From positions 1-36,687 of the forward strand of contig QPGO01000374.1 in the NCBI GenBank assembly GCA_008632985.1: a DNA stretch of 36,687 nucleotides, given 5' to 3'. Position numbers and translations under genes: made by a program. Positions within the stretch are counted from its first letter, which is position 1; each line of letters starts with the position of its first letter. Shown here one piece after another: positions 494 to 34,687 of this stretch. Origin of the DNA: Psammoneis japonica. Its lineage: Eukaryota. The notes under the pieces were generated by a model. It did no database searches and had not been told where the DNA came from. It saw only the letters and a list, made by a program, of their open reading frames with translations.

Positions 494-1245
494 TTTGAGC
501 AAGACAAGCTGGTGTGTTCAACTCAGATTGCTGCTGTGTTTGCCAAGAGCACTCTCACACAAAAATCAAGAGGTGTTTGTTTCTGGAGGCTTGTGTCACT
601 GATTGGTGACACAAGGTTCAAAAACTGAAAATGAAAAAAGTGATGAAAAGGTTTTTTGGCCAGCAGCCCCAAACATTTCTGGAGTCCGTGACTGAAATTT
701 TGGCCCCCAACACCTGCAGCAGGCACACATGCCCTGTGTGCTGCAGGCTTGTGCCAATGTGCAACCACAGTCCATCCATTGCATGCAAATGTCCATGTGC
801 TGTTGTTGTTCAAATAAAGAGGGCGGGTGGGGCTGCGCAGGCTTCAACAATTTGTCCTCGTTTCATGTGCATCAGATCAGTTGCGGGCCAGCTTCCCAAC
901 TCCAATGTGATTGCACATCGGCTGCGGGAACTTCAAGTTGTTGCACACCAAGGGTGGAGCTTTTCAACATTTTGATTTTTTTCCTGACACAGCAAACTCA
1001 CAATGATGCTCAACAACCAGCAGCAATGCTCTCAATGGGAGGGATGCAAACATTGTTTGACATTTTGCTTCATCCACAAACTTGTCACACAATGATGTCT
1101 GATGCACAGGCTGCTTTTGACACAAAAAAAAAGGCCAAGAAGACTTGCATTTGCAGCTGGGGCAATGAGCGCCACTTCACATTGTGCACTCAGCACACGT
1201 GCTTGGCACATCTGATGTCCGCAATGTGACCCATCTTGTGAAAGT

Positions 1246-1521
1246 TGACAGGATTTGAATGGGATTTAGGTGCGCGCGAAATGTCGCGCGCTGTTTAGTT
1301 TACCGCGCACAGTTTTGTGTGCTTTAGTTCCGCGCGTTCGCGCGCGATGTAGTTTGCTTTCGAGCCACAAGGCTCACAAGAATAACAACAGCAGCCCGAT
1401 TGTACCGACTTGCACGTCTTTCGGCTCCTGCAACGGTCTCTGAGCGGAGACTCATCTGCTGTTTAGACAGCAGCAAGGAGTCATTGTTTGAATTCTTGCC
1501 ACTTGCCTTCAATTTCTGTCA
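1246..1521 (+). repeat. 5' LTR of copia-1
   Basis: Aligns without gaps to 8080-8355; 23 mismatches by manual alignment, all transitions. Confidence 0.96.
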
Positions 1522-1532
1522 GATTGACAGTC
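1522..1532 (+). promoter_or_regulatory. Putative primer-binding site of copia-1 (GATTGACAGTC)
   Basis: Directly follows the 5' LTR; restoring one TG to TA gives GATTAACAGTC, the reverse complement of a tRNA-Asn(GTT) anticodon-arm sequence GACTGTTAATC. Confidence 0.45.
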
Positions 1533-2462
1533 TTGCTCATTGTCAACCCATTGAGCAACCGCCATCGTCGTCGTTGATTTTACCGACGACGCTATTTCAA
1601 TTCTGCGTGGACCTCCGCATATGTTCTACACACATCGGCAAGTCTGCGCGTGTTCAATGCCAGGGCATCGGCAGGAAGTTAACGTCACCGTCAAGTCTCC
1701 TTGCCGCTGGATGTCTGGATTGATTGTGCCATTTTCATCGCTGCAGACATGCTTCCAACGGTCACATCCAAGTCCATCTTTGATCATCATCCCTTGACAT
1801 GCACATTCAACGGTTGACGGTCAAGAACCCTGCATGTTCAAGTGTCTTCGTCGCTGAAGACACGTGTGCATGCATCCATGTCTTCACGGCCAAGAACTTG
1901 CACCCACTCTTTGGACTGCGGCTTTGCCATCACTCTGCAAGCACGCCGAGTCTATTGCACCTGATCTGCCCCGGACTGCTGGTGCTCTACAGTTCCACCA
2001 GGTCCACGAGGACGACTGTGAGAGCAAGCAGCCGTGATTGCAGCCTACGTTGGGGCGAGGGTGTTTTTTCCCGCGTTTGTTCGTTCGTCCACAGCGCCTG
2101 ACGCCTGCATCAACTGGCCAGCCTGATCGGGAAATCCAACCGACACAAAACAAGAACGGTTCGGGGGTCTTGTCCACCTCTGGTCAGCTCACCTGCAGGG
2201 GTTTACAACCCGCTACTCCGCTCGCAAGCAACCCAAAGTGCCGCCAGCTGCGGGTTCGGACGTGCCGGCACAACTCTGCGGACCGGACAGGAAGCTCAGC
2301 AACCAACTGCCAACGGGATGGCATGACCCGGTGGCTTCTGACTTGCAAGACAGTTCAAGTTTTCAAGTCAAGTTTCAAGTTTTCAAATCAAGTTTCAAGT
2401 TGATGCCAAGTCATTCCAAGTCCACCCTCCAACTCTAGTTCCGGCACCCAATCAGTTCCACC

Positions 2463-5400
2463 ATGGTTCTCACTCGTCAGCAACAAACCGATGGTTTCGA
2501 GCACGTTGTTGGAACCGTGCTTGCTCAAGGTGCTGGGAGCCCTCTTCGTTTGGCTTTGATCCAAGACGGCACAGACTCGCATCAAGAACTGTTCACGTTC
2601 ATGCCGTCCCAAATCGACTCGCTTGAGCATGACAACAGCACTGGTGTGATCCCTTTGCCCCGCGGTTACAAGAACATGTCAGCAGCTCTCATCAGTCTGT
2701 GCATTGTCAAAGCACACGAAGGTCTTGATGTTGCCAATGACTCCTCGTTGTTCACGCATGGCGAGTTCCTCGCCTGCCGCCTCAGCCCCGACTGCATGTC
2801 TTCTGTGTCCGTCGGCAGCTCACCCCTCGCACCTCCGCATGTCACCAACCCGACCAAGGCACGCGACCCGGTGCGAGACTTCAAACGAGGCATCAAGCGT
2901 GACCCCACTGCTTTCACGGCTCTCAAATCTGACAAGCAGTGGCACACTTGGCACACCTCACTTGTGGCACAAGCCCGTGCCCAAGACGTCGAGTGCATTC
3001 TAGACTCATCGTACAAACCGACCAGTCCTGAAGACAAACTGCTCTTTGCTGAACAGCAAAAGTGCATGTTCGCCGTCTTCGAACGCATCCTTCTCACCGA
3101 CAAGGGCAAGGCTCTCATTCGCGAAAATGTGGGGTCTTCTGACGCCTGGACCATCTGCCGCGCCTTGTCTGAGCATGCGCTCGCCTCCACCCGCGCATCT
3201 GTCGAGTCTTCCACTTTGCCAACGCACCTTGCCACCGCACGTCTTGGTGATGGCACTTGGAAAGGCCCGACCCACGGGTTCATCCTTCATTGGCAAGATC
3301 AGTTGTGCAAGTGCGAGGCACTCATCCCGGCCAGTGACCACTTCTCTGAAGGACAGAAGCGCGTCATGCTTGAGAATGCCATGCACCCTGTCGAGGAACT
3401 CCGTGCTGTCAAGAACCAAGCTGATCAGCATCGTACGCAGAGTGGCAAGAGCCTCACATGCGATCAACACTGTGGCTTGCTCCTCTCCGCGGCAGCTCAG
3501 TGCGACAGCACGTTTCAACCCAAGACGACACCTCGAGCTCCCCGACGCGCCACACACGCACACGATGTCTGCTCCGAGGAACCGTCCGACGATGTGTTCT
3601 ACGACATTGACAGTGACATTGACGTCCTTCAGGCTCACGCTGCCTGCACCCGCGGTCCCAGCCTCGCCGGTGACCAATGGCATCATCTCCCTCCCGACCA
3701 CCAACGGATTTGGGATTCGTTGCCTGATTCCTCCAAGGCGATCATCCTCGCGCATTCTCGCCCGCCTCCTCGCAACCCGCGCGCCAGCAACTGCCATGAG
3801 TGCGTTGAGATCAACCTTCACGACCAACGACTTGGGAGTGATGGTGATGTCAACTTGTCCAACACGACTCCTGCTGCCTCTGGTGACCCCGCCCCAAATG
3901 TGGATGCCACACCAGATAATCCCATTCTGGCGCACCTCACCAAGCGCAAGCCATTGCCTCCCGGTGATCTGCAATGCCTCTTGTCCCCCAACCAAGCCCC
4001 CAGCGCTAGTCGATCGGGCCCATCCGCCGCTCCCTCTACCTCGTCAGCTCCCACAGATGACACAGAACTCAACGGCCGTACCTGCCGCCGCGTCAACAAC
4101 CACAACGTCATTCACTCTGCCTCCACTCATCGCTCCACACGCACCGGTGCTCTAGTCGATCGTGGAGCCAACGGCGGCATTGCTGGCGACGACGTTCGCG
4201 TCATTGCACGCACCTCTCGCCAAGTCGACGTTCAGGGCATTGACGACCACCAATTGGTGGACATCCCCATTGTCACTGCTGGTGCCGTCATTGAGACACA
4301 GCGTGGTCCCGTTGTCGCCATTCTCCATCAGCACGCGTGCACTGGAAAGGGCAAGACCATCCATTCCTGCGGTCAGCTAGAATGGCACAAACACGATGTC
4401 AACGATCGCTCTGTCAAGGTGCCCAACGGCCTGCAGCGTGTCACCACCCCTGACGGCTACGTCATCCCAATCGACATCAAGGGTGGCCTGCCTTGTGTTG
4501 CCATGCGGCCCCACACTGACGACGAATGGGACACCCTGCCACATGTCATCCTCACTGGTGATGACACATGGGATCCTTCCGTCCTCGACCACTCTGTCAC
4601 TGACGACGACCAATGGCATGACGTGATCTGTGACCTGCAGGACGATCCCACTGCCAACCCATTTGACGAGTGCGGCAACTGCCGTCACCGTGTCGTTGTC
4701 AACCAGGCCATCATGTCCGCCTCCTTGTCCCCCGATCACGCGTCCGCCCTCGATGACCACCTCATTCCAACTGAGGACGTGTTCTGCGAATGCCACTTGC
4801 ACGCAATTGACCCCACGGACGACGATGTCCTGCCTCCGGAGCGCAATGTGCAGCCCAAGGACCCCCCTTACGAGTCCCTTCGGCCCTGCTTTGGTTTCCA
4901 ACCTGCCGACACGGTTCGCCGCACCTTCGACTGCACCACGCAATGCGCCCGCATGCCCGCCGGTGCGCACCTTCGGAAGGCCCATAAATTGCCCAACCCC
5001 GCCCTTAATGTGCACCGTCGCAACGAGCCCATCGCCACTGACACCGTTTGTGCTGACACCCCGGCTGTCGACTCTGGTTGCACCAGTGCCCAACTGTTTG
5101 TTGGCACCGAGTCTACCGTCACTGACGTCTACGGCACCAAAACCGACAAAGAATTTGTCAATGCACTCGAGGACCAAATCCGCGAGCGTGGTGCTCCATC
5201 CAAACTCATCAGCGACCGTGCTCAGGTTGAGATCAGCAACAAGGTGCTCGGGATCCTACGAGCCCTCTTCATCTCCAGCTGGCAAAGTGAGCCTCACCAG
5301 CAACACCAAAACTTTGCCGAGCGTCGATGCCAGACCGTGAAGCACATGGCGAACACTGTCATGGATCGTTTTGGTTCGCCCGCCCACACATGGCTGCTGG

Positions 5401-8132
5401 CGCTCATGTGTGTGTGCTTCACACTCAACCACACAGCGTCCCCACGTCTCCACTGGTGCACGCCCCTCGAGACTCTCACTGGCTCCACCCCGGACATCAG
5501 CCCATTGCTCCGCTTTCACTGGTGGGAACCCGTGTGCTTCCACCTCGATGACTCCGATTGGCCGTCCGAATCCCGTGAGTTGCGCGGACGCTTTGTTGGC
5601 ATTGCTGAGCACGTCGGCCACCAGATGACCTTCAAGATTCTCTCTGACGAGACTCAGAAGATTCTCTGCCGGTCCAACGTACGCTCCGCTGCCACCGATC
5701 CTGCCGTTCAAAACCTGCGCCTTGATCCTCCTGATGGGGAGCCACCTGAACCCATCATCAAATCTCGCCATGACGACAATCCCGTCAATTCCCCTGATGG
5801 GGAGATCAGGACACCCAAGATGCCAGTTTTCGATCCGCAGGACATCATTGGACGCACCTTCCTCATGCAGCCACAAGAGGACGGACAACGCCACAGAGCT
5901 CGCATCGTCAAGGCCATTGAAGATCATGAATGGAAAGTGAACGGCAATCCTGAGCTCACTAAATTCGTCTGCTCTGTCAACAACGACGAATGCGAGGAAG
6001 TCCTTGCTCACAACGACATCATGAATCACATCAAGCAAGAGGACGAAGACACTGCTGTTTGGAAATTTCGACGCATCGTGTCACACGAAGGACCCCTGAA
6101 GCCCCATGACCCAACCTGGAAAGGCTCAAGCTACAACATCATGCTTGAATGGGAAAGTGGGGAGATCACGTCCGAGCCTCTTGCCATCATCGCCAAGGAC
6201 AACCCTGTCACCTGCGCCATCCATGCGCGAGAGAACGGACTTCTCGACACTGATGGTTGGAAACGGTTCCGCACCATCGCGAGGCGTCAGAAGAAGCCAC
6301 TCCGCATGGCCAACCAAGCCAAGCTTCGCTCCTTCCGCACTGCACCTCGCTACAAGCACGGATGCGAAGTTCCCCGGAACTGCAAACACGCCATGTCCCT
6401 AGACGAACGCAACGGCAACCGCAAATGGGGAGACGCAACCAATCTCGAGATGGACCAACTCGATGATTACGAAGTCTTTCATGACTGCGGGCCCTCCGAG
6501 TCTTCCACTCCTCCTGCGGGACACAAGAGGATCCGAGTGCACCTGGTGCACGACGTGAAGCACGACGGTCGCCACAAGGCACGACTCGTAGCCGATGGAC
6601 ACCTCACGGACGTACCTGTCGACAGTGTGTGCTCTGGAGCAGTCTCCTTTTGTGGCCTTCGGCTGATGATTTTCCTGGCTGAACTCAACGAGTTGGAGAC
6701 ATGGGCCACCGACATTGGCAATGCCCACCTTGAGGCCACCACCAAGGATAAGCTGTACATTGTAGCTGGACCCGAATTTGGCAAACTCGAGGGCCACATT
6801 CTAGTCATCTACAAAGCCCTGTGTGGACTGCGCAGCTCCGGCCTCCGCTGGCACGAGCGCTTTGCCGACTGCCTGCGAGCTGAAGGTTTCTTCCCCTGTC
6901 GTGCGGAACCCGACATTTGGATGCGCAGGAACGGCGACCACTACGAACATGTTGCCGTTTATGTCGATGATCTCGCCATTGCCATGAAGGATCCTCAATC
7001 CTTCGTCGACACTCTCACGGAAAAGCACAAGTTCAAGCTCAAGGGCACGGGACCGATTGAGTTCCATCCAGGCTGCGACTTTTCCCGGGATCCTGACGGC
7101 ACCTTGTGCTTGTCTCCGCGCAAGTACATTGAACGCATGGTCGACAGTTGCGCACGACTGTTTGGGGAGAAACCTGCCACCAATGCCCTGTCACCCCTGG
7201 AGAAGGGTGACCACCCCGAACTGGACACATCCGAACTGCTGGGGCCCAATGGCGTTCAACAGTTCCAGTCTCTTGTTGGTTCCCTCCAATGGGCAGTGTC
7301 TCTTGGTCGCATTGACATCACCACAGCCGTCATGTCACTCTCTAGCTTCCGAGCTGCACCCCGTCAAGGCCACTTGGATCGTGCCAAACGCGTCTGTGGG
7401 TGCCTCTCCAAGATGCGACATGGCGCTCTCCGCGTTCGCACGGAAGAGCCCGACTGTTCGGATCTCCCTGCACCGGCCCATGAATGGATGCATTCCGTGT
7501 ACGGCGAAGCGGAGGAGATGATCCCGAAGGACGCTCCACCGCCCCTTGGCAAGTTCGTCACTGCCACCCACTGCGTCGATGCAAACCTGCATCATTGCAT
7601 GCTCACCGGACGCTCCGTCATGGGAATGCTCCACTTCCTCAACAAATTCCCGGCTGATTGGTTCTCTAAGAAGCAAGCCACTGTGGAGACTGCAACCCAC
7701 GGGTCTGAATTTGTTGCCGCCAGGACGTGTGTCGAGTGGATTGTTGACCTCCGCATTGCCCTGCGTCACCTCGGCGTCCCAGCCCGTGACATCAGTTGCA
7801 TGTTCGGTGACAACAAGTCGGTTGTGGACAGTGCCACCATCCCGCACTCCAAGTTACACAAGCGACACACCGCTCCATTGTTCCATCGTGTGCGTGAAGC
7901 GATTGCCTCTGGTTGCCTTGAGCTCCACTTCATTGAAGGCTCCCGCAACCCTGCTGACATTCTCAGCAAGCATTGGGGTTGCTCCCAAGTCTGGGACCTT
8001 CTCCGCCCCCTCATGTTTTGGAACTTCATTCCATCCGAAGTCGAATCTGTTTCTGTGACTCCTCAAGCAAACTGGGGAGTGACAGGATTTGAGTGGGATT
8101 TGGGTGCACGCGAAATGTCGCGCGCTGTTTAG
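2463..8132 (+). CDS. Copia gag-pol polyprotein, 1889 aa; open but hypermutated and probably non-functional
   Basis: Gag (DFKRGIKRD), protease LVDRGANGG (~4152), integrase D..D..E (DTVCADT, SDRAQ, AERR), RT (DVKHDGRHKARLVA, KALCGL, YVDD at 6960), RNase H (VDANL, GSEF, GDN, ADILSK). Many normally conserved Tyr read as Cys/His. Confidence 0.93.
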   Translation: MVLTRQQQTDGFEHVVGTVLAQGAGSPLRLALIQDGTDSHQELFTFMPSQIDSLEHDNSTGVIPLPRGYKNMSAALISLCIVKAHEGLDVANDSSLFTHGEFLACRLSPDCMSSVSVGSSPLAPPHVTNPTKARDPVRDFKRGIKRDPTAFTALKSDKQWHTWHTSLVAQARAQDVECILDSSYKPTSPEDKLLFAEQQKCMFAVFERILLTDKGKALIRENVGSSDAWTICRALSEHALASTRASVESSTLPTHLATARLGDGTWKGPTHGFILHWQDQLCKCEALIPASDHFSEGQKRVMLENAMHPVEELRAVKNQADQHRTQSGKSLTCDQHCGLLLSAAAQCDSTFQPKTTPRAPRRATHAHDVCSEEPSDDVFYDIDSDIDVLQAHAACTRGPSLAGDQWHHLPPDHQRIWDSLPDSSKAIILAHSRPPPRNPRASNCHECVEINLHDQRLGSDGDVNLSNTTPAASGDPAPNVDATPDNPILAHLTKRKPLPPGDLQCLLSPNQAPSASRSGPSAAPSTSSAPTDDTELNGRTCRRVNNHNVIHSASTHRSTRTGALVDRGANGGIAGDDVRVIARTSRQVDVQGIDDHQLVDIPIVTAGAVIETQRGPVVAILHQHACTGKGKTIHSCGQLEWHKHDVNDRSVKVPNGLQRVTTPDGYVIPIDIKGGLPCVAMRPHTDDEWDTLPHVILTGDDTWDPSVLDHSVTDDDQWHDVICDLQDDPTANPFDECGNCRHRVVVNQAIMSASLSPDHASALDDHLIPTEDVFCECHLHAIDPTDDDVLPPERNVQPKDPPYESLRPCFGFQPADTVRRTFDCTTQCARMPAGAHLRKAHKLPNPALNVHRRNEPIATDTVCADTPAVDSGCTSAQLFVGTESTVTDVYGTKTDKEFVNALEDQIRERGAPSKLISDRAQVEISNKVLGILRALFISSWQSEPHQQHQNFAERRCQTVKHMANTVMDRFGSPAHTWLLALMCVCFTLNHTASPRLHWCTPLETLTGSTPDISPLLRFHWWEPVCFHLDDSDWPSESRELRGRFVGIAEHVGHQMTFKILSDETQKILCRSNVRSAATDPAVQNLRLDPPDGEPPEPIIKSRHDDNPVNSPDGEIRTPKMPVFDPQDIIGRTFLMQPQEDGQRHRARIVKAIEDHEWKVNGNPELTKFVCSVNNDECEEVLAHNDIMNHIKQEDEDTAVWKFRRIVSHEGPLKPHDPTWKGSSYNIMLEWESGEITSEPLAIIAKDNPVTCAIHARENGLLDTDGWKRFRTIARRQKKPLRMANQAKLRSFRTAPRYKHGCEVPRNCKHAMSLDERNGNRKWGDATNLEMDQLDDYEVFHDCGPSESSTPPAGHKRIRVHLVHDVKHDGRHKARLVADGHLTDVPVDSVCSGAVSFCGLRLMIFLAELNELETWATDIGNAHLEATTKDKLYIVAGPEFGKLEGHILVIYKALCGLRSSGLRWHERFADCLRAEGFFPCRAEPDIWMRRNGDHYEHVAVYVDDLAIAMKDPQSFVDTLTEKHKFKLKGTGPIEFHPGCDFSRDPDGTLCLSPRKYIERMVDSCARLFGEKPATNALSPLEKGDHPELDTSELLGPNGVQQFQSLVGSLQWAVSLGRIDITTAVMSLSSFRAAPRQGHLDRAKRVCGCLSKMRHGALRVRTEEPDCSDLPAPAHEWMHSVYGEAEEMIPKDAPPPLGKFVTATHCVDANLHHCMLTGRSVMGMLHFLNKFPADWFSKKQATVETATHGSEFVAARTCVEWIVDLRIALRHLGVPARDISCMFGDNKSVVDSATIPHSKLHKRHTAPLFHRVREAIASGCLELHFIEGSRNPADILSKHWGCSQVWDLLRPLMFWNFIPSEVESVSVTPQANWGVTGFEWDLGAREMSRAV
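8074..8079 (+). promoter_or_regulatory. Polypurine tract of copia-1
   Basis: GGGGAG immediately upstream of the 3' LTR TG. Confidence 0.7.
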
Positions 8133-8355
8133 TTTGCCGCGCACAGTTTTGTGTGCTTCAGTTCCACGCATTCGCGCGCGATGTGGTTTGCTTTCGAGCC
8201 ACAAGGCTCACAAGAATGACAACAGCAGCCCGACCACACCGACTTGCATGTCTTTCAGCTCCTGTGACGGTCTCTGAGCAGAGACTCATCTGCCATTTAG
8301 ACAGCAGCAAGGAGTTGTTGTTTGAATTCTTGCCATTTGCCTTCAATTTCTGTCA
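8080..8355 (+). repeat. 3' LTR of copia-1
   Basis: Direct repeat of 1246-1521, followed by TSD AAAGT. Confidence 0.96.
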
Positions 8356-9020
8356 AAAGTCATGCAAGGAGACAAGAATGGTCCACTCCAACATTGTGTT
8401 GAGAATCACCCCCCAACCTTGACAGAGCAGATTGCAGGGAACAGCACAAAGTGCTGGCTCACCACTGGCCTCTTGAGCTCATGCGACGCAACCATGAAAA
8501 AGATGGCAAGGTGGTCACAAGCAAGTTCTGGGCAGAGATTGACAAAGTGGAAGCAGAATCACATGATTGCTCAATGGCCAAAGACTGCAACTGTTCTGAA
8601 GAGAATGCTGGTGCAAGAAGCACCAACCTGCCAGTGCACCGTGGATTTGGGGAAGACGACTCTTCACTGTGTCGGTGGTGTCAACAATGATGAGTTCAAA
8701 TGAAGACTGTTCACATGCCAAGGAATTGCAAACACATGCAGTCACAAAACAAACACAGCAGGAGAACAAAACAGCCTTCTTTTCCTTTTGTTGCTTGTGG
8801 GGGTTGTTCTGTTGAGATCTCAGTGGAAAAACTCCACACAGCTCCTCTGACAGCGACACTTTGAAACCAAAAGCAGGTTGGAGGAGTTCACCCAGGCTTT
8901 AGGTGCCACCTCTTAGAACAGGGCCTGTCTGTCCTGTTGTTTAAAATTACATTCATGGCTTTTACTTCATTCTCCAAGCATTCTCGCGAAAAAAAGAGCA
9001 TGCCGAGTCGACTGGTGTCT

Positions 9021-9103
9021 GTCTACCGTCTACCGTCTACCGTACCGGTGTGTACTGTGCGCAGCATCTACCGGTACCGGCATGCGTCGACCGTACTGTA
9101 CCG
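9021..9103. repeat. TACCG/GTAC-rich low-complexity tract upstream of the island gene
   Basis: (GTCTACC)x3 followed by TACCGG, CCGGTACCGG and GTACTGTACCG; ~250 bp upstream of ATG 9358. Confidence 0.6.
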
Positions 9104-9357
9104 CGCGCTTCGCAAATAGGCGCACGTCCGGAATATCCAGAAACTGCGTAGAATCCAGCGTAGAATCAGTATTAATACCAGGGATGTCAAAAAATGACGA
9201 AATTCCGGATTTGCTTCTTTTTTGGCATTTCTACTGGGGCCCCGGAACTGCTTCTACGTTGCGGGATAGCATTGCTCATGCACTTGCAAAAAAGCGTTGT
9301 TGCTGTTTGCTCGTTTTGTGTTACAAGTATTGTTGTTTTATATTACACAGAACTACA

Positions 9358-12300
9358 ATGGAGCAAGGGACTGACCACAACAATGTGGTCTCACAAACAG
9401 AAGCGGGGAAGCTCGTTGTCGAAACGAGCGGAGACGAAATCGATCAAACCAAACAAAAAGACGGACGCGACGAAATCCAGGCCGTGCTCGTTGTCGGGGA
9501 AGCCTCAAAGAAGGCTGTCGCACAAGTGAACAACATTATCAGAAATAAAGTCGAAGTACAAGCTGGGCAAATGACTGCGGGGAGTCAGCACAGGTCCGGT
9601 GTCAACAAATTGCAGTGTTTGTTTATTCGAGCCATCATGGTCGCGGCTGACAATGACGACCGTAATACTCTCCAGCTAATTGCTAGTTGGTGCAGCCAGC
9701 ATAACTTTCGCATCCCTTCCTTTCGGTACCCAGGACGCAAGACCGTGTCCTTTGCGCAAAATGAGCGACTCGACGAGTGGCTCGATCATATCGACAAAAA
9801 GGAGGTCCGCAAACCCGCTCCACCGTTTGAGCTTTGGATGCCTGTCGCTGTAGCCCAGTGTCGCATTCTTTTCTCCAATGGTGACCGCATCCCCCATATT
9901 GAGAGGGTTGCTTCAAAATTGTGCGCCTTATACTACATGCAGGCGCTCAAGTACCTGCAATCAACGGAAAACACGAACGACAAGAACAACTATGAAGTGC
10001 TCAAAGACCTCTTGAAACTGCCTCCCTCCGAGGTAGAATCGGCTATCCGTCTACCCTACGACAACCAGATTCGACCCGCTCCGAGTGCCGTTCAGTATTT
10101 GTCAACCACCGACGCGAAACCAGAAGCCAAGACCGTCCAAGTCGCCACTGACGGACTTAGGGGCGCTGCCAAGATGCCTCCCATTTTCGAAGACGACGAT
10201 TCGCCTCTACAAGGCACGGCCAAATTGCCCTCTCGACCGAAGAAGTCCCCCGGCACCGGTGCGCCGTCGATCAAAACTGTCTACAGCACGGACTCGCAAG
10301 ACTCGGACATCACCGATATCTCCACTCCCCCATCGAATAAGCGAGAATTGGAAGCCCGCTATCGTCTACTTGCAAAGACAAACCAGAAACTGCTGCGTCA
10401 ATGTCGCACGCGCGGAAGCCAACTCAAGCAATTGAGAAAATTGCCGTCAACCAGTCGGAAACCAACAAGAACCAATCTGCAACCATCCGGGAGAATGCGA
10501 CTACCGTCAAAGAAATGTACGCGGAGGTAAAGCGACTTGTCTCTGAGAACGACGATTTGAGGCGTCAACTTATGGACAACATTATGGCCATGGACCAACT
10601 CATGAAGGCGGGCCGCGACCGGACCGACGAGTACTTCCGTAATTTAGATCGACTGTTCCCGAAAGACTTTCTTTCAAAGCTTGTGAAGACGCCAGAGAAA
10701 CGTAAAGAGCTCAAGGACCTCGTGGACGTACTCACTTCGGAGGGTTTCAAGTATCCCCGCATTTTGGAGGGCGATCTTACGAAGATGCCGGAGGAAGCGC
10801 TGCGAAGCTGTTTGAACTACTCAAACCTGCGTCGGGCTTGTATGATAAGCGCTCTGGAATATTTCTGTTCCTAACGCACGGCGACAATCGCGACGAAGTC
10901 ACCGTCGACGACATTGACAACATGTGTTACGAGATTCTACCGAAGGTTGGATTCACTGTGCAGTTCGGTATTACCGTGAAAGACACGAGTAGCAACGAGT
11001 TTGTTCTCGGTCTCATTAGTAGGTCCCAAGACGAGATCCCCGATTTGTATGGATCTCTTGCTGTCGTCGCTGCTCGTACGCCGAACGCAGAGCATACGAC
11101 ATTGGAGAGCGACAGTTCCGAAGGCACTTCTACTTTGCCCATGACTCCACGCATTCTCCAAGATTTCGTCTACCCTGACTGCCGCGAGTCGACCGCAACC
11201 AAGACCACTGTGACGAAGTTCCGTCTCACCTCCAAGCATCAACAAGGATTGCACACGCCATTTGAAAACGATCCAGTCATGCTTGTCCTTGACAGTGTGG
11301 ACCTCGACGATGGCGGCAAGGCTCTTTGGGACCAAGCGACTCGAAAAAGCCAATGATGTTGACGTTTGTCAAAAAGCTTGACGGTGATTTTCCGTCCTTG
11401 AAGGGTGCCATTGAGGAAGAGCGAGTGAGCTTTTTTGGATTGAATGCGATCCAACTCTGCAACGACGACCATCAGAACGTCAAGGAACTGCTAGTTGCTG
11501 CTCGATCGAGCGGCTGCGAGTACAGTTTGGAAAATATCACCCACAAAGAATTGACTGAAGATGAATTGATCGAGCACTTTGCTGACCTCGTTGAGCCAAA
11601 GCGTTTCAAGACCTCCCGCCGGACATTGGAGCCGACGACTACCAGGATGACTATTCTCCGGACGTCACCTTTGCCAAAAAGGAGGATACGCCTGACAGCG
11701 ATGGCATGTGGAAGGTACAGCCGAATACTACGAAATGCAATTATTGCCTTGCCCCTAACGCTATCGACGCCGAGACCTGTGTGTCTTGCCAACAATCTTT
11801 TGTTCCAGCCCGCAGCCCGATCCTCCCACTCCCAAAGCGACCTCTTTGGAGGGGAGCTCAACGAATTCGGGTTTTCGTTTACGGGCACGGGGACGGTTCG
11901 GCTTCTACTCATTTGGCCAGTACGGGAAACGCTTTTACGGGCAGTGATTCGAGCGTCAATGCGCCGGGAGGATGGACGTTTGATCCAGCATCCTCGAATC
12001 CAAGCGAAAGCGCCAATGCGCCGGAAGGATGGACGTTTGATCCAAGCAAGAGCGCTCAGGAGCCGACAGAAACCACCACGGGAGGTGGTGCTGTCACGGA
12101 CGTGACCGTCAAGCCAAGCAAGAGCGTCGATCAGCCGACAGCAACCACCACGGGAGGTGGTGCCGTCACGGACTCGGCCGTCAAACCAAGCAAGAGCATT
12201 ACGGAGCCGACAGCAACCACCACGGGAGGTGGCACCGTCACGGAATCGGCCGTCAAACCAAGCAAGAGCGCCGAAGCCAACGGGAAGGCGCCGGGATCGT

Positions 12301-12746
12301 CTTCGGCTGCCGACATGAGATTCTCCATTAACGGCATGTTCCCTGCTACGGGTGGACCTGCCCCGGGAGCGACCTCCGAATCCGTCAAGACCGATATGTT
12401 TGCTTTCAACGATGTCGTCGAATCTCCTGCCGCAACTGGAAATGCCAACGAGACAAAGGGGAGCGGGGGATCCTTGAAGAAAGTCGCGACGACCACGGAA
12501 ACAAGCGATGCTGCCGCGACGACTGGGGCTTCCAAGAAAGCGGACTTGGAGAACGAATCCAACGGAAAGGCGAAATCCAAGACGAAGAAGAAGCCCGGTC
12601 AAGGTCGTCCACCTGTTGCGCGAAGCCGTTCGGCGGCCAATGAAGTCGTTGAAGACCAAAATGAGCGTCGTCCTCCCTTGACTCGCTCCGCCTCGGGCCC
12701 GCGCCGCTCTGCTCGTTTGCGAAATCAGGAAGGGCGAAACGACTGA
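9358..12746 (+). CDS. ~1130-aa protein with coiled coil, RanBP2-type zinc finger and low-complexity S/T/G repeat tail; frame broken by 4-7 single-base deletions
   Basis: Successive overlapping + strand ORFs join into one frame when one base is added in short homopolymers; normal Tyr, TpA and CpG content; C-x2-C-x3-N-x6-C-x2-C at 11736-11790; basic C-terminus (RRSARLR). Start codon is my best guess. Confidence 0.7.
12042..12270 (+). repeat. 72-bp (24-aa) coding tandem repeat, ~3.2 copies
   Basis: ccaagcaagagc recurs at 12042, 12114, 12186 and 12258 (PSKS..PT.TTTGGG.VT...VK); preceded by a 57-bp-spaced duplicate NAP.GWTFDP at 11958/12015. Confidence 0.92.
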
Positions 12747-13159
12747 TTTTTACCCGCAATTGCTCCGATAGCCTTCCTACCACGAGCCTCTCTTAGCGTT
12801 TAGTCCTTGATTGAAATTGCCAAAGCTGTACAGCGTCAGTTCGTTTAGTTAGAAGTTTACTTGAACTACTTGTATTCCGGTAATCGAGGTAGCTCGAATT
12901 TTCCTCTAGTGAAATCGTTTACACAGATCAATCGGCGAAACATCGTCATTGAGCATTTTTCGTGCTTCGAGTGGCAACGTCTTGATGAACAGAGATTTTG
13001 GTGCCTATTCTTTGCAAATTCGTGCAGTCAAGCTACGTTCACTGCCAGTTCCTTCCCTTTTAAGCTGCCTCGGGCAATTTACTGGGCCCAAAATGCACTT
13101 CAAGTGCTGCTCCACCTTCGAATTAGCATTCAGGGATTACAAAATTGGTGTTAAGCAAA

Positions 13160-15556
13160 CAGTCAGTGGTGCAAGCTGTCCCAAAGGCTGTCTTTTCCGT
13201 CTTGAATGATTGTGGGACAGTGTGGGGGAAGGGTGCAGAGAACAAGAGCACGCACTTGCGAGTCCAAGAACTCATCAGAAAGGGCTTGGACTTTCAGCAG
13301 TTTTCAAAGTGTTGCCATGTCACTGTTCATTTTGCAAACATTGGCCACAAGAGCCGGTGCGGTGAAAATGTGGGATGCAAACAATTGACACTCCGTGTCA
13401 TCATGGAGACTGCAGTTGATGAGTTAAAGCAACACAAGATTCATTGCCAAGACAACCAATTGAGTTGGATTGGCAAGACCTGGTCTAAGGAGATTCTGAA
13501 ACCTGACATTCCAGGTGCAGAAGAAATTGCTGTGCCACTGGCAAAATGGCAGACCATCTGGGTGACTCCGTTCATTGGAGCATGCAACAAAACTTGAGAG
13601 TGATGGATGATTCATGTCTCACAAAGATGCAGAGACCATTGTCAGCTGAGGAACAAGTTGGAGTGCAGAATTTGATGATTGGTGTCATCAATGTTCACAT
13701 TTAGCTGCAAAAGATGGGGTCGCACCTTCGGGTGGCATTTTGATTCCAAGCTGGTGGCACATGATGCTTGTTTGTTGAAATGTTCTTTGCATGCCATGTG
13801 TGCAAAGCAGTGGCCAGCATAGACTGGTTGTGTGGACTCATTGACAATCTCTGCAATGACTTTGGTGCAAAGGCTCCAGGCCTTTTGGACAGTTTTGCAT
13901 GACTCTTCTTGAAAATTTTCAACACAGTCTTTGGCTGCAGGAAAAACCAAACCGTCTTTGCCCGCAAGTGGTGGGTTGAAATGAAAAGAATCATTGCACC
14001 AGTTTTCACTCCCAGCAAGTGTTGGATGCTGTCATGGCTGGCTTCATGTCATGCTTTGAATGTGCAAGCACCAACAACTCAGGTTTCTTCACCAGAAGGT
14101 CAGCGGGTTGCATTGTCCACCATCAATGTCAGCTGGCTCAATTTTGCTCAATGCCAAGCACACAGTGTGCACACATGGCTCATCATCAAGCTGATCTAGA
14201 TGGTGTGACATGTCAACTGCATTTCCAGTTTCCCCAACAATCCATGGATCAAGTCAATGACATGTCTGCCTGTCTGCTGACACAATGTGGCAGCGCATTG
14301 TTCTCACTGGATGTGGTTTGATGGTTGATTTTTTCACATTCTCAGCCTTTTTCTGCCAGTGCTGTGCACTCTTCTTCTGGAGAAAAAGTGATGTGGCCTT
14401 CAGATTGAAGTTTGTGCCACCATCGTTGGAGGCGGCACTTGCCTGCTCTTCCAAATCTGGCACTGGGGGTGTGATGCAATGCTTCTTGTTCACAGTGGCT
14501 CTAAAAAGTTTTCTCGATGACTCCAATGAAGTGGGTGATGTGAGCCTTTCATTGGATGGAGCATCATTCACAGAAGGTTCCTGCGGCAACTGTCTGGCCA
14601 ATTGACTTCTCCAACACATGCGGTTTGTTCCAAGGCACTGTCCAGTGTGGGCAAAACTGCTCACGGCAATGCTGTGGCTCTGCTGTCAATTGGAGCAAGC
14701 TTGACTTCAATTGCAGCCTTTTGATCCATCAAAGTGCAAACTCATTGTTCATGTGTGGTCTTCTCCCATTGCACCATCTCACTCCAGCATGTTTTCTCCT
14801 GCTTCTGGTCAGCAGCATTCATCTCAACAAAACTCCAAACCTTCTTGAAAATGGTGTGCCAGCTCATGTCATGACTGGCTGTGTGGCATGGTGTTGCACC
14901 TCCACCGTGTTCCAACTTGAGCACCACAATGATTGACAAGCTGTCTGTGGCATCAACCAGCATCATTTGCCTCTCCTTGGCCTGATTGTGTGATGGAACA
15001 GCTTCAGTGCATTGCATTGGGTGACCCCATTCAACTGCATGTTGTTCAATGATGGGGCCATTCTCTCAACAATCTTGAAAGCTCAGCAGTCACTTGACAC
15101 TCTCAGATTGTGTGCATTGTTTGTGAGAGCCATCAGCATTGTTTTGGTGAAGCTGCAAGATGACATGTCCGCAGCTCTCATCATGGTGTGTGTTGTTTTG
15201 ATGTTTTCCCAACAGAAGTTTTTTGCAGTGCCCCAACAAAGTCCAGATGGAGCCGCTGTGCGTGGCACCAGCCAGCCAGTTTCCAGATGAAGCCCTTTCT
15301 GGCAGGCACTCTTCTGCAGTGCCACAATTGTCACAGAAAATCTGTGCTCCAGATTGTGGTTCAGAGCTGGTGCAGATTTCAATGGGTTCCACAGAAACAG
15401 GTGCAGATTTTCAACAAGTGCAGATTTTTAAGAAAAATGATGTTTTGTCACCCAATTTGGAAGCTCCTCAAGCATGCGCACTTTGGCGCAGTCTGCCGCA
15501 TGTGCGTCATGCACACATTTGCAGCATGTGTGTGTGTGTGGGGGGGGGGGGGGGGG
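13160..15556. other. TpA- and CpG-depleted degenerate sequence, probably decayed TE; family not recognised
   Basis: Abrupt return to TpA-poor, TG/CA-rich composition; only short Cys/His-rich ORFs. Confidence 0.45.
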
Positions 15557-15676
15557 NNNNNNNNNNNNNNNNNNNNNNNNNNNNNNNNNNNNNNNNNNNN
15601 NNNNNNNNNNNNNNNNNNNNNNNNNNNNNNNNNNNNNNNNNNNNNNNNNNNNNNNNNNNNNNNNNNNNNNNNNNNN
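15557..15676. other. Assembly gap (120 N) preceded by (TG)n and poly-G
   Basis: Seen directly. Confidence 0.99.
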
Positions 15677-18687: not shown

Positions 18688-19113
18688 GGCCATTGCTGGA
18701 AGGAGCAACTCAAGACACCACAAACCAGTTGAGAGTCTGTGCAGCCACAAACCACATGGCATTGTTGTTGTCATTGCTGCTGCTGCTCATGGCCATGCTT
18801 TTTAGGGCAGTGTGCTGTGTTGCTCATGACAGCGGTCCCCACAAAACCTTTCTGCAGTGATGTGTTTGCTCACACCCAGTTTCCAGCAGCCATCATGGCT
18901 GCTGCATCATCAGCGTCGCTCAAGCAACAGTGACAGAGCAACAACAGCAGAGCAACAGCAGTGCCATGACATCCAGCATCAACCTCTTTGTCCATCAAAG
19001 CATCTGCTGTCCATTCAATGTCAATGATTTCCAGCACAGGGTGACTCCCAGCAGCGGCGGCATGCGAGCTGCCTCTGTGAGATGCGAGACACGCTCTCCA
19101 CTTTTTGACAGAG
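18688..19113. repeat. Dispersed repeat copy, left part, interrupted by copia-2
   Basis: Similar to 1-346; continues at 26772. Confidence 0.82.
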
Positions 19114-19299
19114 TGAATGAATGCTGACATGCTGTCACGGATGTGGGCAGTTTATGTGCTGTTGGCAATTGGTCCACTGTTGCTTGTTCAGTGGTCCCAG
19201 CAGTGCAACATCTCACAATTCTAGAACCTGTTGACATGCTGTTGAACATTCTATCTTGTCTTGCACCCAATTCTTGGCTGTCATGGCAGCATTTGTTCA
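19114..19299 (+). repeat. 5' LTR of copia-2 (186 bp)
   Basis: Aligns to 26588-26771 with about 22 substitutions and one 2-bp indel (manual count). Confidence 0.92.
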
Positions 19300-19312
19300 C
19301 TTTGTCAGAGCC
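19300..19312 (+). promoter_or_regulatory. Primer-binding site, tRNA-iMet type, mutated
   Basis: CTTTGTCAGAGCC right after the LTR; matches the TATCAGAGCC core of the canonical TGGTATCAGAGCC with TA->TG. Confidence 0.7.
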
Positions 19313-26579: not shown

Positions 26580-26586
26580 AAGGGGA
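26580..26586 (+). promoter_or_regulatory. Polypurine tract of copia-2
   Basis: AAGGGGA one base before the 3' LTR. Confidence 0.65.
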
Positions 26587-26587
26587 T

Positions 26588-26771
26588 TGAGTGAATGCTG
26601 ACACACTGTCACAGATGTGGGCAGTTTGTGTGCCATTGGCGATTGGTCCACCATTGCTTGTTTGGTGGTCCCAGCAGCGTGACATCTCACAATTCTAGAA
26701 CCTGTTGATGCTGTTCAACACTCTGTCTTGTCTCACACCCAATTCTTGGCCATCATGGCAGCATTTGTTCA
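26588..26771 (+). repeat. 3' LTR of copia-2 (184 bp)
   Basis: Direct repeat of 19114-19299. Confidence 0.92.
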
Positions 26772-33723: not shown

Positions 33724-34071
33724 AGCACTGTCATGCTTGCACGATGCCGTCAATTTCGGCCACTGCAAACAATGTCCGAGGGTGTGGAAGCAACAACAAC
33801 AAGGGAAAACGTGCTGTCAGTTGAAGTTTCAAAAAAAAGGCTTTGTCGTTGCAAGTCTCCATTGATGCCAACTTGCCACAACCTTTGCGAAGTGCCGCAA
33901 GAGAGATTGCTGCTGCGACACCAACTCAGGCTTGAGCGCGCGCCTTCGCAAACGATGCAACCTCCATGGTTGGTTGCTGTTTTTTCTCGTGCTAAAAGCA
34001 CGGGAAGTTTTGATGGCAGACAGACTCAAAGAAAAAGTCTGCGCAGATTTTCAGCATGTTCTACGAGGGCC

Positions 34072-34643
34072 TCTGTTGTGCTGCATCGTTTGGTCGTGGC
34101 GCCAGAACCCCGGGTGCGGCACCCGGTTTTTTTTTTTAATTTTTTTAATGCGGAAATTATGCATTCGACCAAGAAATTGATTTTTTCATACGGAGCACTA
34201 ACATTTTCGGCTACTTTGTTCGGCATTACGTGCCAACACTCTTTCGATGTAACATAACGCCACCCTCTCACACTCTGTATGGTTCTGAAAGATTTCTCAA
34301 TAGAAAACCAACGGCAAAGTGTGCACTCTACAAGAGATACAGCTGTCACCAGAAACAGGGCGTGGCGCCCGGGTTTTTCATTTTTGGATATATCAACCTC
34401 ATTTTGATCTTCAATTATTTAAGTAAGAGCACATATATGAGGCCCGAAATGATTGTAAACAATCGTGTTGACATCTTATCGATTCAACGGACGCATGTGT
34501 CATTTGTCAACGGCTATTGTTCCGTATTAAAAACAGTAATTTCTTGGTCGAATGCATAATTTCCTTGTTAAAAAAATTTAAAAAAAAAACGGGTGCCGCA
34601 CCCGGGGTTCTGGCGCCACGACTAAACGATGCGGCACAATAGA
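34072..34643. repeat. ~106-bp inverted repeat (34072-34178 / 34538-34643) around a ~360-bp AT-rich spacer
   Basis: gtcgtggcgccagaaccccgggtgcggcacccg...ggaaattatgcattcgaccaagaaatt occurs in both orientations. Confidence 0.93.
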
Positions 34644-34687
34644 AATCTATTGTGCCGCATGCGGCACCATGCGCACATGCGGGTTAA
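34629..34687 (+). mobile_element. Putative piggyBac-type right terminus (hairpin followed by GGG|TTAA)
   Basis: Hairpin atgcggcacaatag-aaat-ctattgtgccgcat (34629-34660), then GGG 34681-34683 and TTAA 34684-34687, at the edge of a compositional island. No matching left end found. Confidence 0.5.

What the first reader, a model, noticed from the sequence alone, without database searches (positions are those of the whole stretch)
1246..8355. Paired LTRs of copia-1 record the mutation spectrum after insertion
LTRs are identical at integration. Manual alignment gives 23/276 mismatches, all transitions and no indels: 6 TA vs TG/CA, 4 reciprocal TG vs CA doublets (8 positions, as expected if one ancestral TA or CG was hit on opposite strands in the two copies), 6 CG vs CA/TG, and 3 others. 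The TA and CG forms are always the ones kept in the 5' LTR, so the 3' LTR is more heavily hit. This points to mutation of integrated DNA rather than RNA editing before reverse transcription. It also means LTR-divergence dating would overestimate age.
Basis: seen in the sequence. Interest (0 to 1): 0.82.

Follow-up and report, generated by a model that had tools for sequence, protein, structure and literature searches.

The report
TpA-targeted hypermutation recorded in copia LTRs
The two end-repeats of a retrotransposon, identical when it inserted, now differ only by changes that turn TA and CG into TG or CA, showing that this organism heavily mutates silenced repeat DNA at TA sites, a rare process so far reported in only one alga.

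Summary
The LTRs at 1246-1521 and 8080-8355 are 276 nt each, end in TG..CA and are flanked by the 5-bp duplication AAAGT. They differ at 23 sites, all transitions, with no indels.

TA is the ancestral state. At 40 columns where Tyr is conserved in 39 relatives, this copy keeps 10 and has 15 Cys (TGY) and 12 His (CAY).

The change is strand-symmetric: 22 TpA>TpG against 16 TpA>CpA. It also affects non-element flanks.

It is confined to domains. Repeat DNA has TA at 0.53% of dinucleotides; two islands of equal G+C have 3.24%.

A second LTR pair in the window shows the same pattern.

The best reading is post-integration, DNA-level TpA>TpG/CpA hypermutation of silenced repeats, with slower CpG decay alongside it. 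The closest precedent is a 2026 preprint on Bigelowiella natans.

The 5' LTR plus leader is a spared tract. The cause of this 5'/3' asymmetry is unresolved.

LTR dating is inflated about 3.7-fold. The organism was not identified.

The parts
1241..1245 (+). Target-site duplication, left copy (AAAGT)
   Evidence: Read directly; identical to 8356-8360.
1246..1521 (+). 5' LTR, 276 nt, TGACAG...CTGTCA. The less mutated copy: 8 TA, 22 CG, TA o/e 0.49.
   Evidence: The first 28 nt are joined to unique flank in a run-X1 contig with 0 differences (record 1).
1522..2462 (+). Leader between the 5' LTR and the start codon. Its first ~180 nt (1522-1700) keep 5 TA and belong to the spared tract.
   Evidence: TA counts. 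Retained TA are unevenly spread (permutation p = 0.004), driven by the first 455 nt.
2463..8132 (+). Polyprotein frame: ATG at 2463, open from 2439, TAG at 8130-8132 inside the 3' LTR. Hypermutated: Tyr 0.8% against 3.0-4.3% in 120 relatives. The native stop, expected near 8046-8075, appears erased.
   Evidence: Most of the 39 relatives end at residues 1868-1887 of this frame. tblastn matches of relatives span 2463-8042.
6513..7148 (+). Ty1/copia-type reverse transcriptase domain (residues 1359-1570)
   Evidence: Pfam RVT_2 PF07727, E = 1e-22, 81 bits, against 104 bits in the intact relative P0002.
8066..8079 (+). Purine-rich tract ending in GGGGAG directly before the 3' LTR (polypurine-tract-like)
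   Evidence: Read. Function is inferred from position only.
8080..8355 (+). 3' LTR, 276 nt. The more mutated copy: 2 TA, 16 CG, TA o/e 0.12.
   Evidence: The last 26 nt are joined to unique flank in a run-X1 contig (record 8).
8356..8360 (+). Target-site duplication, right copy (AAAGT)
8881..13200 (.). Spared island: TA 3-16 and CG 11-23 per 200 nt in most bins, with sharp edges. Probably a host gene region. Serves as the internal control.
   Evidence: ORFs here have Tyr 0.5-2.8%. No Pfam match and no homologue found.
19111..19299 (+). 5' LTR of a second, older and distantly related copia element
   Evidence: Relatives match 23579-26451 at 20-35% identity.
26585..26771 (+). 3' LTR of the second element. 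The pair differs by 21 transitions, 2 transversions and one 2-nt gap, including 7 TG/CA doublets.
34001..34800 (.). Second small spared island (5-14 TA per 200 nt)

Best explanation
Copia-1 is one intact Ty1/copia-type insertion whose LTRs were identical at integration. Since then the integrated double-stranded DNA has been exposed to a domain-restricted hypermutation. It converts 5'-TpA-3' to TpG or, when the other strand is hit, to CpA.

A slower CpG to TpG/CpA decay, of the kind methylated cytosine gives, runs in the same domains. Both processes end in TpG/CpA, which is why these dinucleotides pile up to 21% of all dinucleotides.

Where both LTRs were hit at the same ancestral TA or CG but on opposite strands, a TG/CA doublet results.

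The most likely chemistry is deamination of adenine at TpA on either strand of silenced repeat DNA. The resulting hypoxanthine is read as G at replication. The process acts in tracts, and one tract (the 5' LTR plus about 180 nt of leader) was largely spared.

Shown here: direction, dinucleotide context, strand symmetry, timing after integration, and confinement to repeat domains.

Inferred: the enzyme, any link to silencing or methylation, and the cause of the spared tract.
For: Direction:
- 30 of 40 conserved Tyr are lost, 27 of them to TGY or CAY codons.
- Of 74 single-step differences at conserved columns, 38-39 are TpA>TpG/CpA, 9 are CpG>TpG/CpA, 5 are other AT>GC transitions and 20 are transversions.
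- At several of the 40 best-supported variable places, other copies in run X1 read TA where the window has TG or CA. They also show TG/CA doublets at 1651/1652, 2245/2246, 2404/2405 and 2412/2413.

Symmetry: 22 TpA>TpG against 16 TpA>CpA, p = 0.42.

Magnitude:
- TA o/e is 0.16 in the element, against a median of 0.72 (minimum 0.33) in 79 related loci.
- G+C is 57% against 48%.

Domains:
- 31.4 kb of depleted DNA: TA 0.53%, TG 10.65%, CA 10.31%, CG 3.51% of dinucleotides.
- 5.1 kb of islands: TA 3.24%, TG 6.19%, CA 6.93%, CG 7.44%.
- G+C is equal (50.9% vs 50.6%).
- The edges fall within about 200 nt.

Post-integration timing: the LTRs differ and the target-site duplication is intact.

Replication: the copia-2 LTR pair has 19 of 23 substituted positions in the same classes.

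TA loss outruns CpG loss: the young element has TA o/e 0.16 but CG o/e 0.89, while old flanks have 0.02-0.1 and 0.13-0.46.

Precedent: mutation-accumulation lines of B. natans gave 230 of 231 new mutations in two integrated viral regions as A>G or T>C. All of these GC-biased mutations fell on TpA, at about 6e-7 per site per generation (bioRxiv 10.64898/2026.01.13.699255, Results read).
Against: - No enzyme, DNA modification or methylation data could be examined, because no genome is held.
- CpG loss accompanies TpA loss here. In B. natans, G/C>A/T changes were essentially absent from the hypermutable regions. So the processes may not be identical, or two processes overlap.
- 3 of the 23 LTR differences and 5 of 74 coding differences are transitions outside TpA/CpG.
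- Only 3 of the 23 LTR positions are verified by flank-anchored contigs, and run X1 may not be independent of the assembly.
- Whether the islands are truly host genes is unproven.
- With only two LTR pairs, the 5'/3' asymmetry cannot be generalised. In copia-2 the private CG are 1 in the 5' LTR against 2 in the 3' LTR.
Confidence: 0.8

Rival explanations
1. Assembly, polishing or base-calling artefact. Reads from many copies, or strand-specific miscalls at modified bases, are merged position by position. That would produce TA, CG, TG or CA at random at the same site. It would also make one LTR look consensus-like and therefore less mutated.
For: - Summed contig depth over the element is 17,557-282,825 per bin, against 92-122 in the two bins right of the element (8476-9000) and 9,006 in the left edge bin (1000-1266, which takes in 21 nt of the 5' LTR). 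This suggests a high-copy family that is hard to assemble.
- A per-position majority over copies that carry TG or CA would regenerate TA.
- 20 of the 23 LTR positions are not verified by flank-anchored contigs.
Against: - Run-X1 contigs at single-copy depth (59.5-73.9) reproduce the TA-free flanks 1000-1273 and 8330-9000 with 0 and 1 differences. They include 3 diagnostic LTR positions.
- An artefact would not respect sharp domain edges or leave islands of equal G+C normal.
- Tyr>Cys/His occurs throughout a 5.7-kb frame with no frameshift.
- This rival could at most explain the 5'/3' asymmetry, not the TpA depletion.
Confidence: 0.06
2. Editing of the element's RNA (ADAR-like A>I) or of its cDNA during reverse transcription (APOBEC-like), so that the changes predate integration.
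For: - All changes are transitions.
- From recall, ADAR prefers U before the edited A.
- cDNA editing after plus-strand strong-stop synthesis could in principle make the LTRs unequal (inference from the retroviral replication scheme).
Against: - The changes are strand-symmetric (22 vs 16). The LTR differences include A/G 14 and C/T 9 in both directions.
- Non-element DNA on both sides (1-1245 and 8356-8880) is more TA-depleted than the element.
- Older repeats of other kinds, including satellite-like DNA at 35-36.7 kb, are also depleted.
Confidence: 0.03
3. The 12:0 asymmetry arises because the 5' LTR and leader were overwritten by gene conversion from a younger, less mutated copy. Under this reading there was no unequal mutation in place.
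For: - The family appears high-copy.
- The spared tract is contiguous (1246 to about 1700) and spares TA and CG alike.
- Conversion would keep the target-site duplication.
Against: - The LTRs differ by 0 transversions and 0 indels.
- Among 620 variable places between this copy and other copies, 89 are transversions. By my arithmetic, a random donor would give no transversion in 23 differences with probability about 0.03.
- A very close sister copy as donor is not excluded.
Confidence: 0.1
4. Ordinary composition or GC-biased gene conversion among repeats. No targeted mutation process is involved.
For: G+C of the element is 9 points above its relatives.
Against: - The gain is confined to TpA. 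Other AT>GC transitions account for only 5 of 74 changes.
- GC>AT changes at CpG accumulate at the same time.
- Depleted DNA and islands have the same G+C.
Confidence: 0.02

Closest known systems
TpA>TpG/CpA hypermutation of integrated viral DNA in Bigelowiella natans (Mettrop et al., bioRxiv 10.64898/2026.01.13.699255). I read the abstract, Results and Discussion and ran a term search. I did not see the supplements.
   Same: - A>G and T>C only at TpA, on both strands.
- Acts on nuclear DNA.
- Confined to foreign-derived regions while neighbouring DNA is normal.
- Long-term signature of TpA depletion with CpA+TpG enrichment.
- The preprint reports that TpA-poor coding sequences are enriched for reverse-transcriptase and DDE domains.
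   Different: - Here the targets are LTR retrotransposons and whole repeat domains, not giant-virus or virophage insertions.
- Depletion is much deeper: o/e 0.02-0.27, against Rho 0.45 for their NCLDV region.
- CpG decay runs alongside, whereas G/C>A/T was nearly absent there.
- The preprint text holds no occurrence of LTR, copia, retrotransposon or CpG.
- Whether this window's organism is B. natans is unknown.
- No protein above 70% identity to this polyprotein was listed in either search. In the first search (120 hits) none was Tyr-poor. This argues weakly against an organism whose annotated proteome is in the collection.
Repeat-induced point mutation (RIP) of fungi (from established knowledge; the fungal papers were seen only as listings)
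   Same: - Transition-only hypermutation of repeated or mobile DNA in the genome.
- Dinucleotide-specific and strand-symmetric.
- Inactivates elements and inflates divergence.
   Different: - The direction is opposite. RIP turns CpA into TpA and enriches TpA; here TpA is destroyed and CpA/TpG are enriched.
- RIP creates stop codons. This process removes TAA and TAG: 1.6-1.75 per kb against 5.1-6.25 per kb in the islands. A 1897-codon frame is left open.
Deamination of 5-methylcytosine at CpG in silenced repeats (established knowledge)
   Same: - CG>TG/CA at 6 of the 23 LTR differences.
- CpG o/e is 0.12-0.5 in old repeat DNA against 1.1-1.3 in the island.
   Different: - It cannot produce TA>TG/CA, which is the dominant change.
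- Methylation itself could not be tested.
APOBEC3 and ADAR hypermutation of retroelements (established knowledge and the preprint's Discussion)
   Same: Deaminase-type, transition-only damage to retroelements.
   Different: - Those act on cDNA or RNA of one strand before integration and give strand-biased G>A or A>G.
- Here the damage is symmetric, occurs after integration and extends into flanking DNA.
Diatom-type Ty1/copia elements (CoDi). The name is recalled. For PMC2806351 I ran only a term search.
   Same: - RVT_2 reverse transcriptase, LTRs and a 5-bp duplication.
- The nearest Atlas clusters list Bacillariophyta as the commonest phylum, but the phylum is known for only 2 members.
   Different: - Assignment to a named CoDi clade was not tested.
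- That paper has no occurrence of 'hypermut' or 'dinucleotide'.

Membership tests
Ty1/copia LTR retrotransposon | Paired LTRs with TG...CA ends flanked by a 5-bp target-site duplication | tested here: met
   276-nt LTRs with TGACAG...CTGTCA ends; AAAGT on both sides.
Ty1/copia LTR retrotransposon | Copia-type reverse transcriptase (Pfam RVT_2) | tested here: met
   PF07727, E = 1e-22, 81.4 bits against a cut-off of 31.6, residues 1359-1570.
Ty1/copia LTR retrotransposon | Integrase encoded upstream of reverse transcriptase | tested here: inconclusive
   - No Pfam integrase match, even in the intact relative P0002 at E up to 1.
- A profile search of solved structures found nothing relevant.
- About 1350 residues precede the RT. 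From recall, a stretch around residues 950-965 resembles the integrase core.
Ty1/copia LTR retrotransposon | Primer-binding site after the 5' LTR and polypurine tract before the 3' LTR | tested here: inconclusive
   A purine run GGGGAG abuts the 3' LTR. The primer-binding site was not matched to any tRNA.
TpA-directed A:T>G:C DNA hypermutation (B. natans type) | Changes are A>G / T>C at TpA, with TpA ancestral | tested here: met
   27 of 40 conserved Tyr codons are now TGY or CAY. 38-39 of 74 single-step changes are TpA>TpG/CpA.
TpA-directed A:T>G:C DNA hypermutation (B. natans type) | Both strands are hit (TpG and CpA products alike) | tested here: met
   22 against 16. TG 10.65% and CA 10.31% in depleted DNA.
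TpA-directed A:T>G:C DNA hypermutation (B. natans type) | Local: foreign or repeat DNA is hit, adjacent DNA is spared | tested here: met
   Islands at 8881-13200 and 34001-34800 have 6-fold more TA at equal G+C, with edges within about 200 nt. This covers one window only.
TpA-directed A:T>G:C DNA hypermutation (B. natans type) | Spectrum almost exclusively AT>GC | tested here: not met
   CpG>TpG/CpA accounts for 6 of the 23 LTR differences and 9 of 74 coding changes. This may be a separate overlaid process.
TpA-directed A:T>G:C DNA hypermutation (B. natans type) | Directly measured elevated de novo rate | not testable with these tools
   This needs mutation-accumulation or resequencing data. 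The only figure here is my indirect arithmetic: TpA loss -ln(10/37) = 1.3, against 3/132 = 0.023 divergence at other positions for two lineages. That puts the TpA rate in the order of 100 times the background rate.
Fungal RIP | C>T at CpA (or CpG), producing TpA enrichment | tested here: not met
   TpA is depleted (o/e 0.16) and is the ancestral state.
Pre-integration RNA/cDNA editing (ADAR, APOBEC) | Strand-biased changes limited to the element | tested here: not met
   The changes are symmetric and the flanks are also depleted.
Methyl-CpG decay | CpG>TpG/CpA with low CpG o/e in silenced DNA; cytosine methylation present | tested here: inconclusive
   The sequence signature is present. Methylation is not testable here.

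The most novel reading that the evidence does not exclude
This organism is not B. natans. On this reading, a second eukaryotic lineage, possibly a stramenopile given the element's nearest relatives, runs a 'reverse RIP'. That would be a chromatin-domain-wide DNA editing system that destroys TpA on both strands of retrotransposons and other repeats. It would act roughly 100 times faster than background and several times faster than CpG decay, and it would spare the 5' LTR/leader. TpA-directed DNA editing would then be a widespread genome defence, and LTR clocks in such genomes would need recalibration.
Probability: 0.35. Interest if true: 0.9.

Novelty: new member of a known kind. Interest (0 to 1): 0.76.

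Why it matters
Natural A:T>G:C hypermutation of nuclear DNA is almost unknown. In six searches of the held library, the only report I found is a 2026 preprint on integrated viruses in one alga (hits other than the preprint were seen as listings only).

What this window adds:
- The same signature acts on LTR retrotransposons, close to saturation.
- LTR pairs give an internal clock showing that it happens after integration.
- The domain edges are sharp.
- TpA loss outruns CpG decay.

Practical consequences:
- LTR-divergence ages are inflated, here about 3.7-fold.
- Because TAA and TAG are erased, dead elements keep very long open frames and look intact.
- Tyr>His/Cys changes weaken domain detection: RVT_2 scores 81 bits here against 104 in a relative.

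If an enzyme can be tied to this process, it would be a natural DNA adenine (or thymine) editor with TpA specificity.

Tried and rejected
- Whole-genome route: no genome is held for this window.
- Earlier notes of this scan: three look-ups returned nothing.
- Organism identity: not obtained.
  - The runs are coded.
  - No protein above 70% identity in either of two searches of the polyprotein.
  - The island ORF 8917-10530 has no homologue in the length range searched.
  - 13 other long ORFs have no Pfam match.
  - The Atlas taxa rest on 2 members.
- No RNA holder was listed among the sequencing runs, so nothing can be said about expression.
- Read laying showed only 40 of 645 variable places, none of them inside the LTRs. 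The LTR sites could therefore not be polarised from other copies.
- Integrase and protease were not detectable by Pfam or by a search of solved-structure sequences.
- LTR pairs of metagenomic relatives as controls:
  - 7 pairs are identical, and a further pair (L030) differs at only 2 sites.
  - L026 and L039 have ordinary ratios (5:11 and 12:13).
  - L001 (19:1) and L064 (64:8) are transition-rich, but mostly outside TA/CG classes.
  - Terminal repeats of metagenome contigs may join different copies, so I draw no conclusion.
- Transcription-coupled mutation as the cause of the asymmetry: rejected. The transcribed leader is spared too, and there is no strand bias.
- Context preference: surviving TA are rarest after A or before T (ATAT 1, ATAC/GTAT 2) and commonest in CTAA/TTAG (35) and CTAC/GTAG (31). 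This is suggestive only, because ancestral contexts are unknown.
- One script stopped on a formatting error after printing the needed table.

Full report
THE OBSERVATION

The window holds one 276-nt direct repeat pair at 1246-1521 and 8080-8355, at 92% identity. The copies align without gaps. Each starts with TGACAG and ends with CTGTCA. They are bracketed by the same five bases, AAAGT, at 1241-1245 and 8356-8360.

Between them a frame is open from 2439 to 8132, with its ATG at 2463 (1897 codons). It carries a copia-type reverse transcriptase (Pfam RVT_2, E = 1e-22, residues 1359-1570). This is a single, structurally intact Ty1/copia-type insertion.

The LTRs differ at 23 positions. All are transitions, with no indel.
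- 6 sites with TA in the 5' LTR against TG (4) or CA (2) in the 3' LTR.
- 6 sites with CG against CA (5) or TG (1).
- 4 TG/CA doublets.
- 3 others, at LTR positions 14, 155 and 257.

No TA or CG is private to the 3' LTR.

Chance is a poor explanation:
- (2/3)^23 = 9e-5 for all transitions.
- 20 of 23 differences lie in pyrimidine-purine steps, which make up 144 of 276 positions (p = 5e-4).
- The 12:0 asymmetry gives p = 5e-4.

WHICH STATE IS ANCESTRAL

A search with residues 900-1897 found 1245 relatives at up to 70% identity, nearly all from metagenome assemblies. I aligned 39 of the 120 listed relatives with the window's protein.

- At 735 columns conserved in at least 80% of relatives, 642 are unchanged.
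- Tyr is the exception: of 40 Tyr columns only 10 are kept, 15 are Cys, 12 are His and 3 are Phe.
- The codons are TGC/TGT and CAC/CAT.
- Every other residue type is kept at 79-100% (Fisher p = 4e-21).
- Of the 74 differences explicable by one base change, 22 are TpA>TpG, 16 are TpA>CpA, 1 is ambiguous, 9 are CpG>TpG/CpA, 5 are other AT>GC transitions, 1 is an ambiguous GC>AT transition or transversion, and 20 are transversions.

Composition agrees:
- The protein has 0.79% Tyr, against at least 3.03% in all 120 listed relatives.
- The element's interior has TA o/e 0.16 and 57% G+C.
- 79 related loci have median TA o/e 0.72 (minimum 0.33) and 48% G+C.

So TA is ancestral and TG/CA are derived.

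Contigs of run X1 add to this. About 11,650 pieces lie on the element at 85% likeness or more, and 531 of 620 variable places are transitions. Several of the 40 best-supported places read TA in other copies where the window has TG or CA. Four are TG/CA doublets.

DNA OR RNA, BEFORE OR AFTER INTEGRATION

Three facts place the process on integrated double-stranded DNA:
- The LTRs, identical at integration, now differ.
- The two strand-equivalent products are equally common: 22 against 16, p = 0.42.
- DNA outside the element is even poorer in TA (o/e 0.02 left of it, and 0 TA in 8401-8800).

Editing of the RNA, or of one cDNA strand, predicts strand bias and normal flanks.

TARGETED, NOT GENOME-WIDE COMPOSITION

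The window as a whole has TA o/e 0.15, but not uniformly. Two islands, 8881-13200 and 34001-34800, have ordinary values. The rest is depleted.

| Region | TA | TG | CA | CG | G+C |
|---|---|---|---|---|---|
| Depleted, 31.4 kb | 0.53% | 10.65% | 10.31% | 3.51% | 50.9% |
| Islands, 5.1 kb | 3.24% | 6.19% | 6.93% | 7.44% | 50.6% |

(Percent of dinucleotides.)

The transitions between states occur within about 200 nt. The larger island carries long ORFs with 0.5-2.8% Tyr and a 24-residue Thr/Gly-rich repeat. It has no recognisable family or homologue. I take it as a probable host gene, but this is unproven.

CpG IS A SECOND, SLOWER CLOCK

Old repeat DNA has lost both TA (o/e 0.02-0.15) and CG (0.12-0.55). 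The young copia-1 has lost TA (0.16) but hardly any CG (0.89).

In the 3' LTR, 6 of 8 identifiable TA and 6 of 22 CG are gone.

My arithmetic:
- TpA loss: -ln(10/37) = 1.3 in the frame.
- CpG loss: -ln(16/22) = 0.32.
- Other positions: 3/132 = 0.023 for two lineages.

This puts TpA in the order of 100 times background, and CpG at about 30 times. The margins are wide because the denominator is 3 events.

LTR divergence is 8.3% overall but 2.3% at positions outside pyrimidine-purine steps.

REPLICATION INSIDE THE WINDOW

A second, distantly related and more decayed copia element has LTRs at 19111-19299 and 26585-26771 (relatives match 23579-26451 at 20-35% identity). They differ by 21 transitions, 2 transversions and one 2-nt gap. 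The classes are:
- 7 TG/CA doublets.
- 2 TA (5' LTR) against TG.
- 3 CG against TG/CA: the CG is in the 5' LTR at 1 site and in the 3' LTR at 2.
- 2 other transitions.

Many doublets are what near-saturation predicts, when both LTRs have been hit at most ancestral TA or CG sites.

THE 5'/3' ASYMMETRY

The 3' LTR (TA o/e 0.12) looks like the interior (0.16). The 5' LTR (0.49) is the outlier. The spared tract continues into the leader: 13 TA in 1246-1700, against 46 in the remaining 6655 nt (p = 7e-5).

Retained TA are unevenly spread over the element (permutation p = 0.004). That signal disappears when the first 455 nt are left out (p = 0.20).

The tract spares TA and CG alike. I considered three causes:
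1. Less exposure in place, for example a promoter-proximal stretch that stayed outside the silenced or methylated state, or tract-wise bursts that missed it. I favour this, but it is inference.
2. Gene conversion from a younger copy. The absence of any transversion or indel among the 23 differences argues against a random donor. The family shows 89 transversions among 620 variable places, giving a probability of about 0.03. A close sister copy is not excluded.
3. Consensus-like polishing of one LTR in a high-copy family. Flank-anchored contigs verify only LTR positions 14 and 23 in the 5' LTR and 257 in the 3' LTR.

With two LTR pairs, no general 5'/3' rule can be claimed.

MECHANISM

TpA is palindromic, so sequence alone cannot say whether A or T is the base attacked. 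I commit to adenine deamination at TpA on either strand of silenced repeat DNA as the most likely chemistry, at roughly 45% given the process is real. The B. natans authors propose this too, naming an ADAT2-like candidate.

The alternative is oxidation of thymine to a base that mispairs with G (from my own knowledge, roughly 20%). The remainder is unknown.

Side effects seen here:
- TAA and TAG are erased: 1.6-1.75 per kb against 5.1-6.25 per kb in the islands.
- Dead DNA therefore keeps long open frames.
- The element's own stop seems lost. Most relatives end at residues 1868-1887 of this frame, which instead runs on to a TAG inside the 3' LTR.

COMPARISON WITH WHAT IS KNOWN

The only matching report I found is the 2026 preprint on Bigelowiella natans mutation-accumulation lines. 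There, 230 of 231 new mutations in two integrated viral regions were A>G or T>C. All of these GC-biased mutations fell on TpA, at about 6e-7 per site per generation. TpA-poor coding sequences were enriched for reverse-transcriptase and DDE domains. Its text does not mention LTRs, copia, retrotransposons or CpG. Its supplements were not available to me.

Five further searches gave only fungal RIP, CpG and unrelated papers (seen as listings only). A term search of the diatom copia paper PMC2806351 found nothing on hypermutation or dinucleotides.

The organism here is unknown. No listed relative exceeds 70% identity, and none of the 120 full-length relatives checked is Tyr-poor. The nearest Atlas clusters point weakly to diatoms. 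If it is B. natans, this is a new locus and a new kind of evidence for a published process. If not, it is a second lineage.

VERDICT

- The spared copy, not the hit copy, is the anomaly.
- The CG changes are probably a separate process.

This is a new member of a recently described and very unusual kind of genome-directed hypermutation.

Noticed in passing
window 19111-26771: A second, older copia-like element with 186-189-nt LTRs. TA o/e is 0.02-0.15 and CG o/e 0.25-0.55. No Pfam match is left in its ORFs, but tblastn to relatives still finds the RT/RNase H part at 23579-26451.
   Followed up: partly
window 8881-13200: Spared island with normal TA and high CpG (o/e 1.1-1.3). It has long + strand ORFs and three 72-nt (24-residue, Thr/Gly-rich) tandem repeats at 12042-12274. 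No homologue or Pfam family was found. Probably a host gene lying 525 nt from the copia-1 insertion.
   Followed up: partly
window 34001-34800: Small AT-richer island (G+C down to 34%) with 5-14 TA per 200 nt, inside otherwise TA-free DNA. Its nature is unknown.
   Followed up: no
window 35328-36687: Satellite-like tandem array with a period of about 185-187 nt (higher-order spacing 557-558). It is almost free of TA (0-1 per kb) and CpG-poor, and it runs to the window's end.
   Followed up: no
window 27168-27327: Tandem duplication of an 80-nt unit at 91% identity. The differences were not classified.
   Followed up: no
window 15557-15676: A run of 120 N (an assembly gap) inside depleted DNA.
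   Followed up: no
window, all depleted parts: Loss of TAA and TAG leaves TGA as almost the only stop (23.8 per kb against 1.6-1.75). Many long ORFs here (for example 29483-33723 and 19986-24990) may be meaningless, and an intact-looking frame is no sign of an active element.
   Followed up: partly
window 8046-8132: The polyprotein frame overruns the point where most relatives end. It stops only at a TAG inside the 3' LTR. The native stop was probably erased by the same TpA change.
   Followed up: partly
L001:1-537 and 7493-8029; L064:1055-1553 and 7425-7923: Two metagenomic relatives have terminal repeats that differ almost only by transitions: L001 19:1, with 17 of them C/T on the coding strand, and L064 64:8. 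Most lie outside TA/CG classes. This could be a different editing process or a chimeric assembly.
   Followed up: partly
L058 (2561 nt): This locus has the lowest TA o/e among the 79 related loci (0.33, with CA/TG at 1.3). It may be a partly hypermutated relative from another sample.
   Followed up: no
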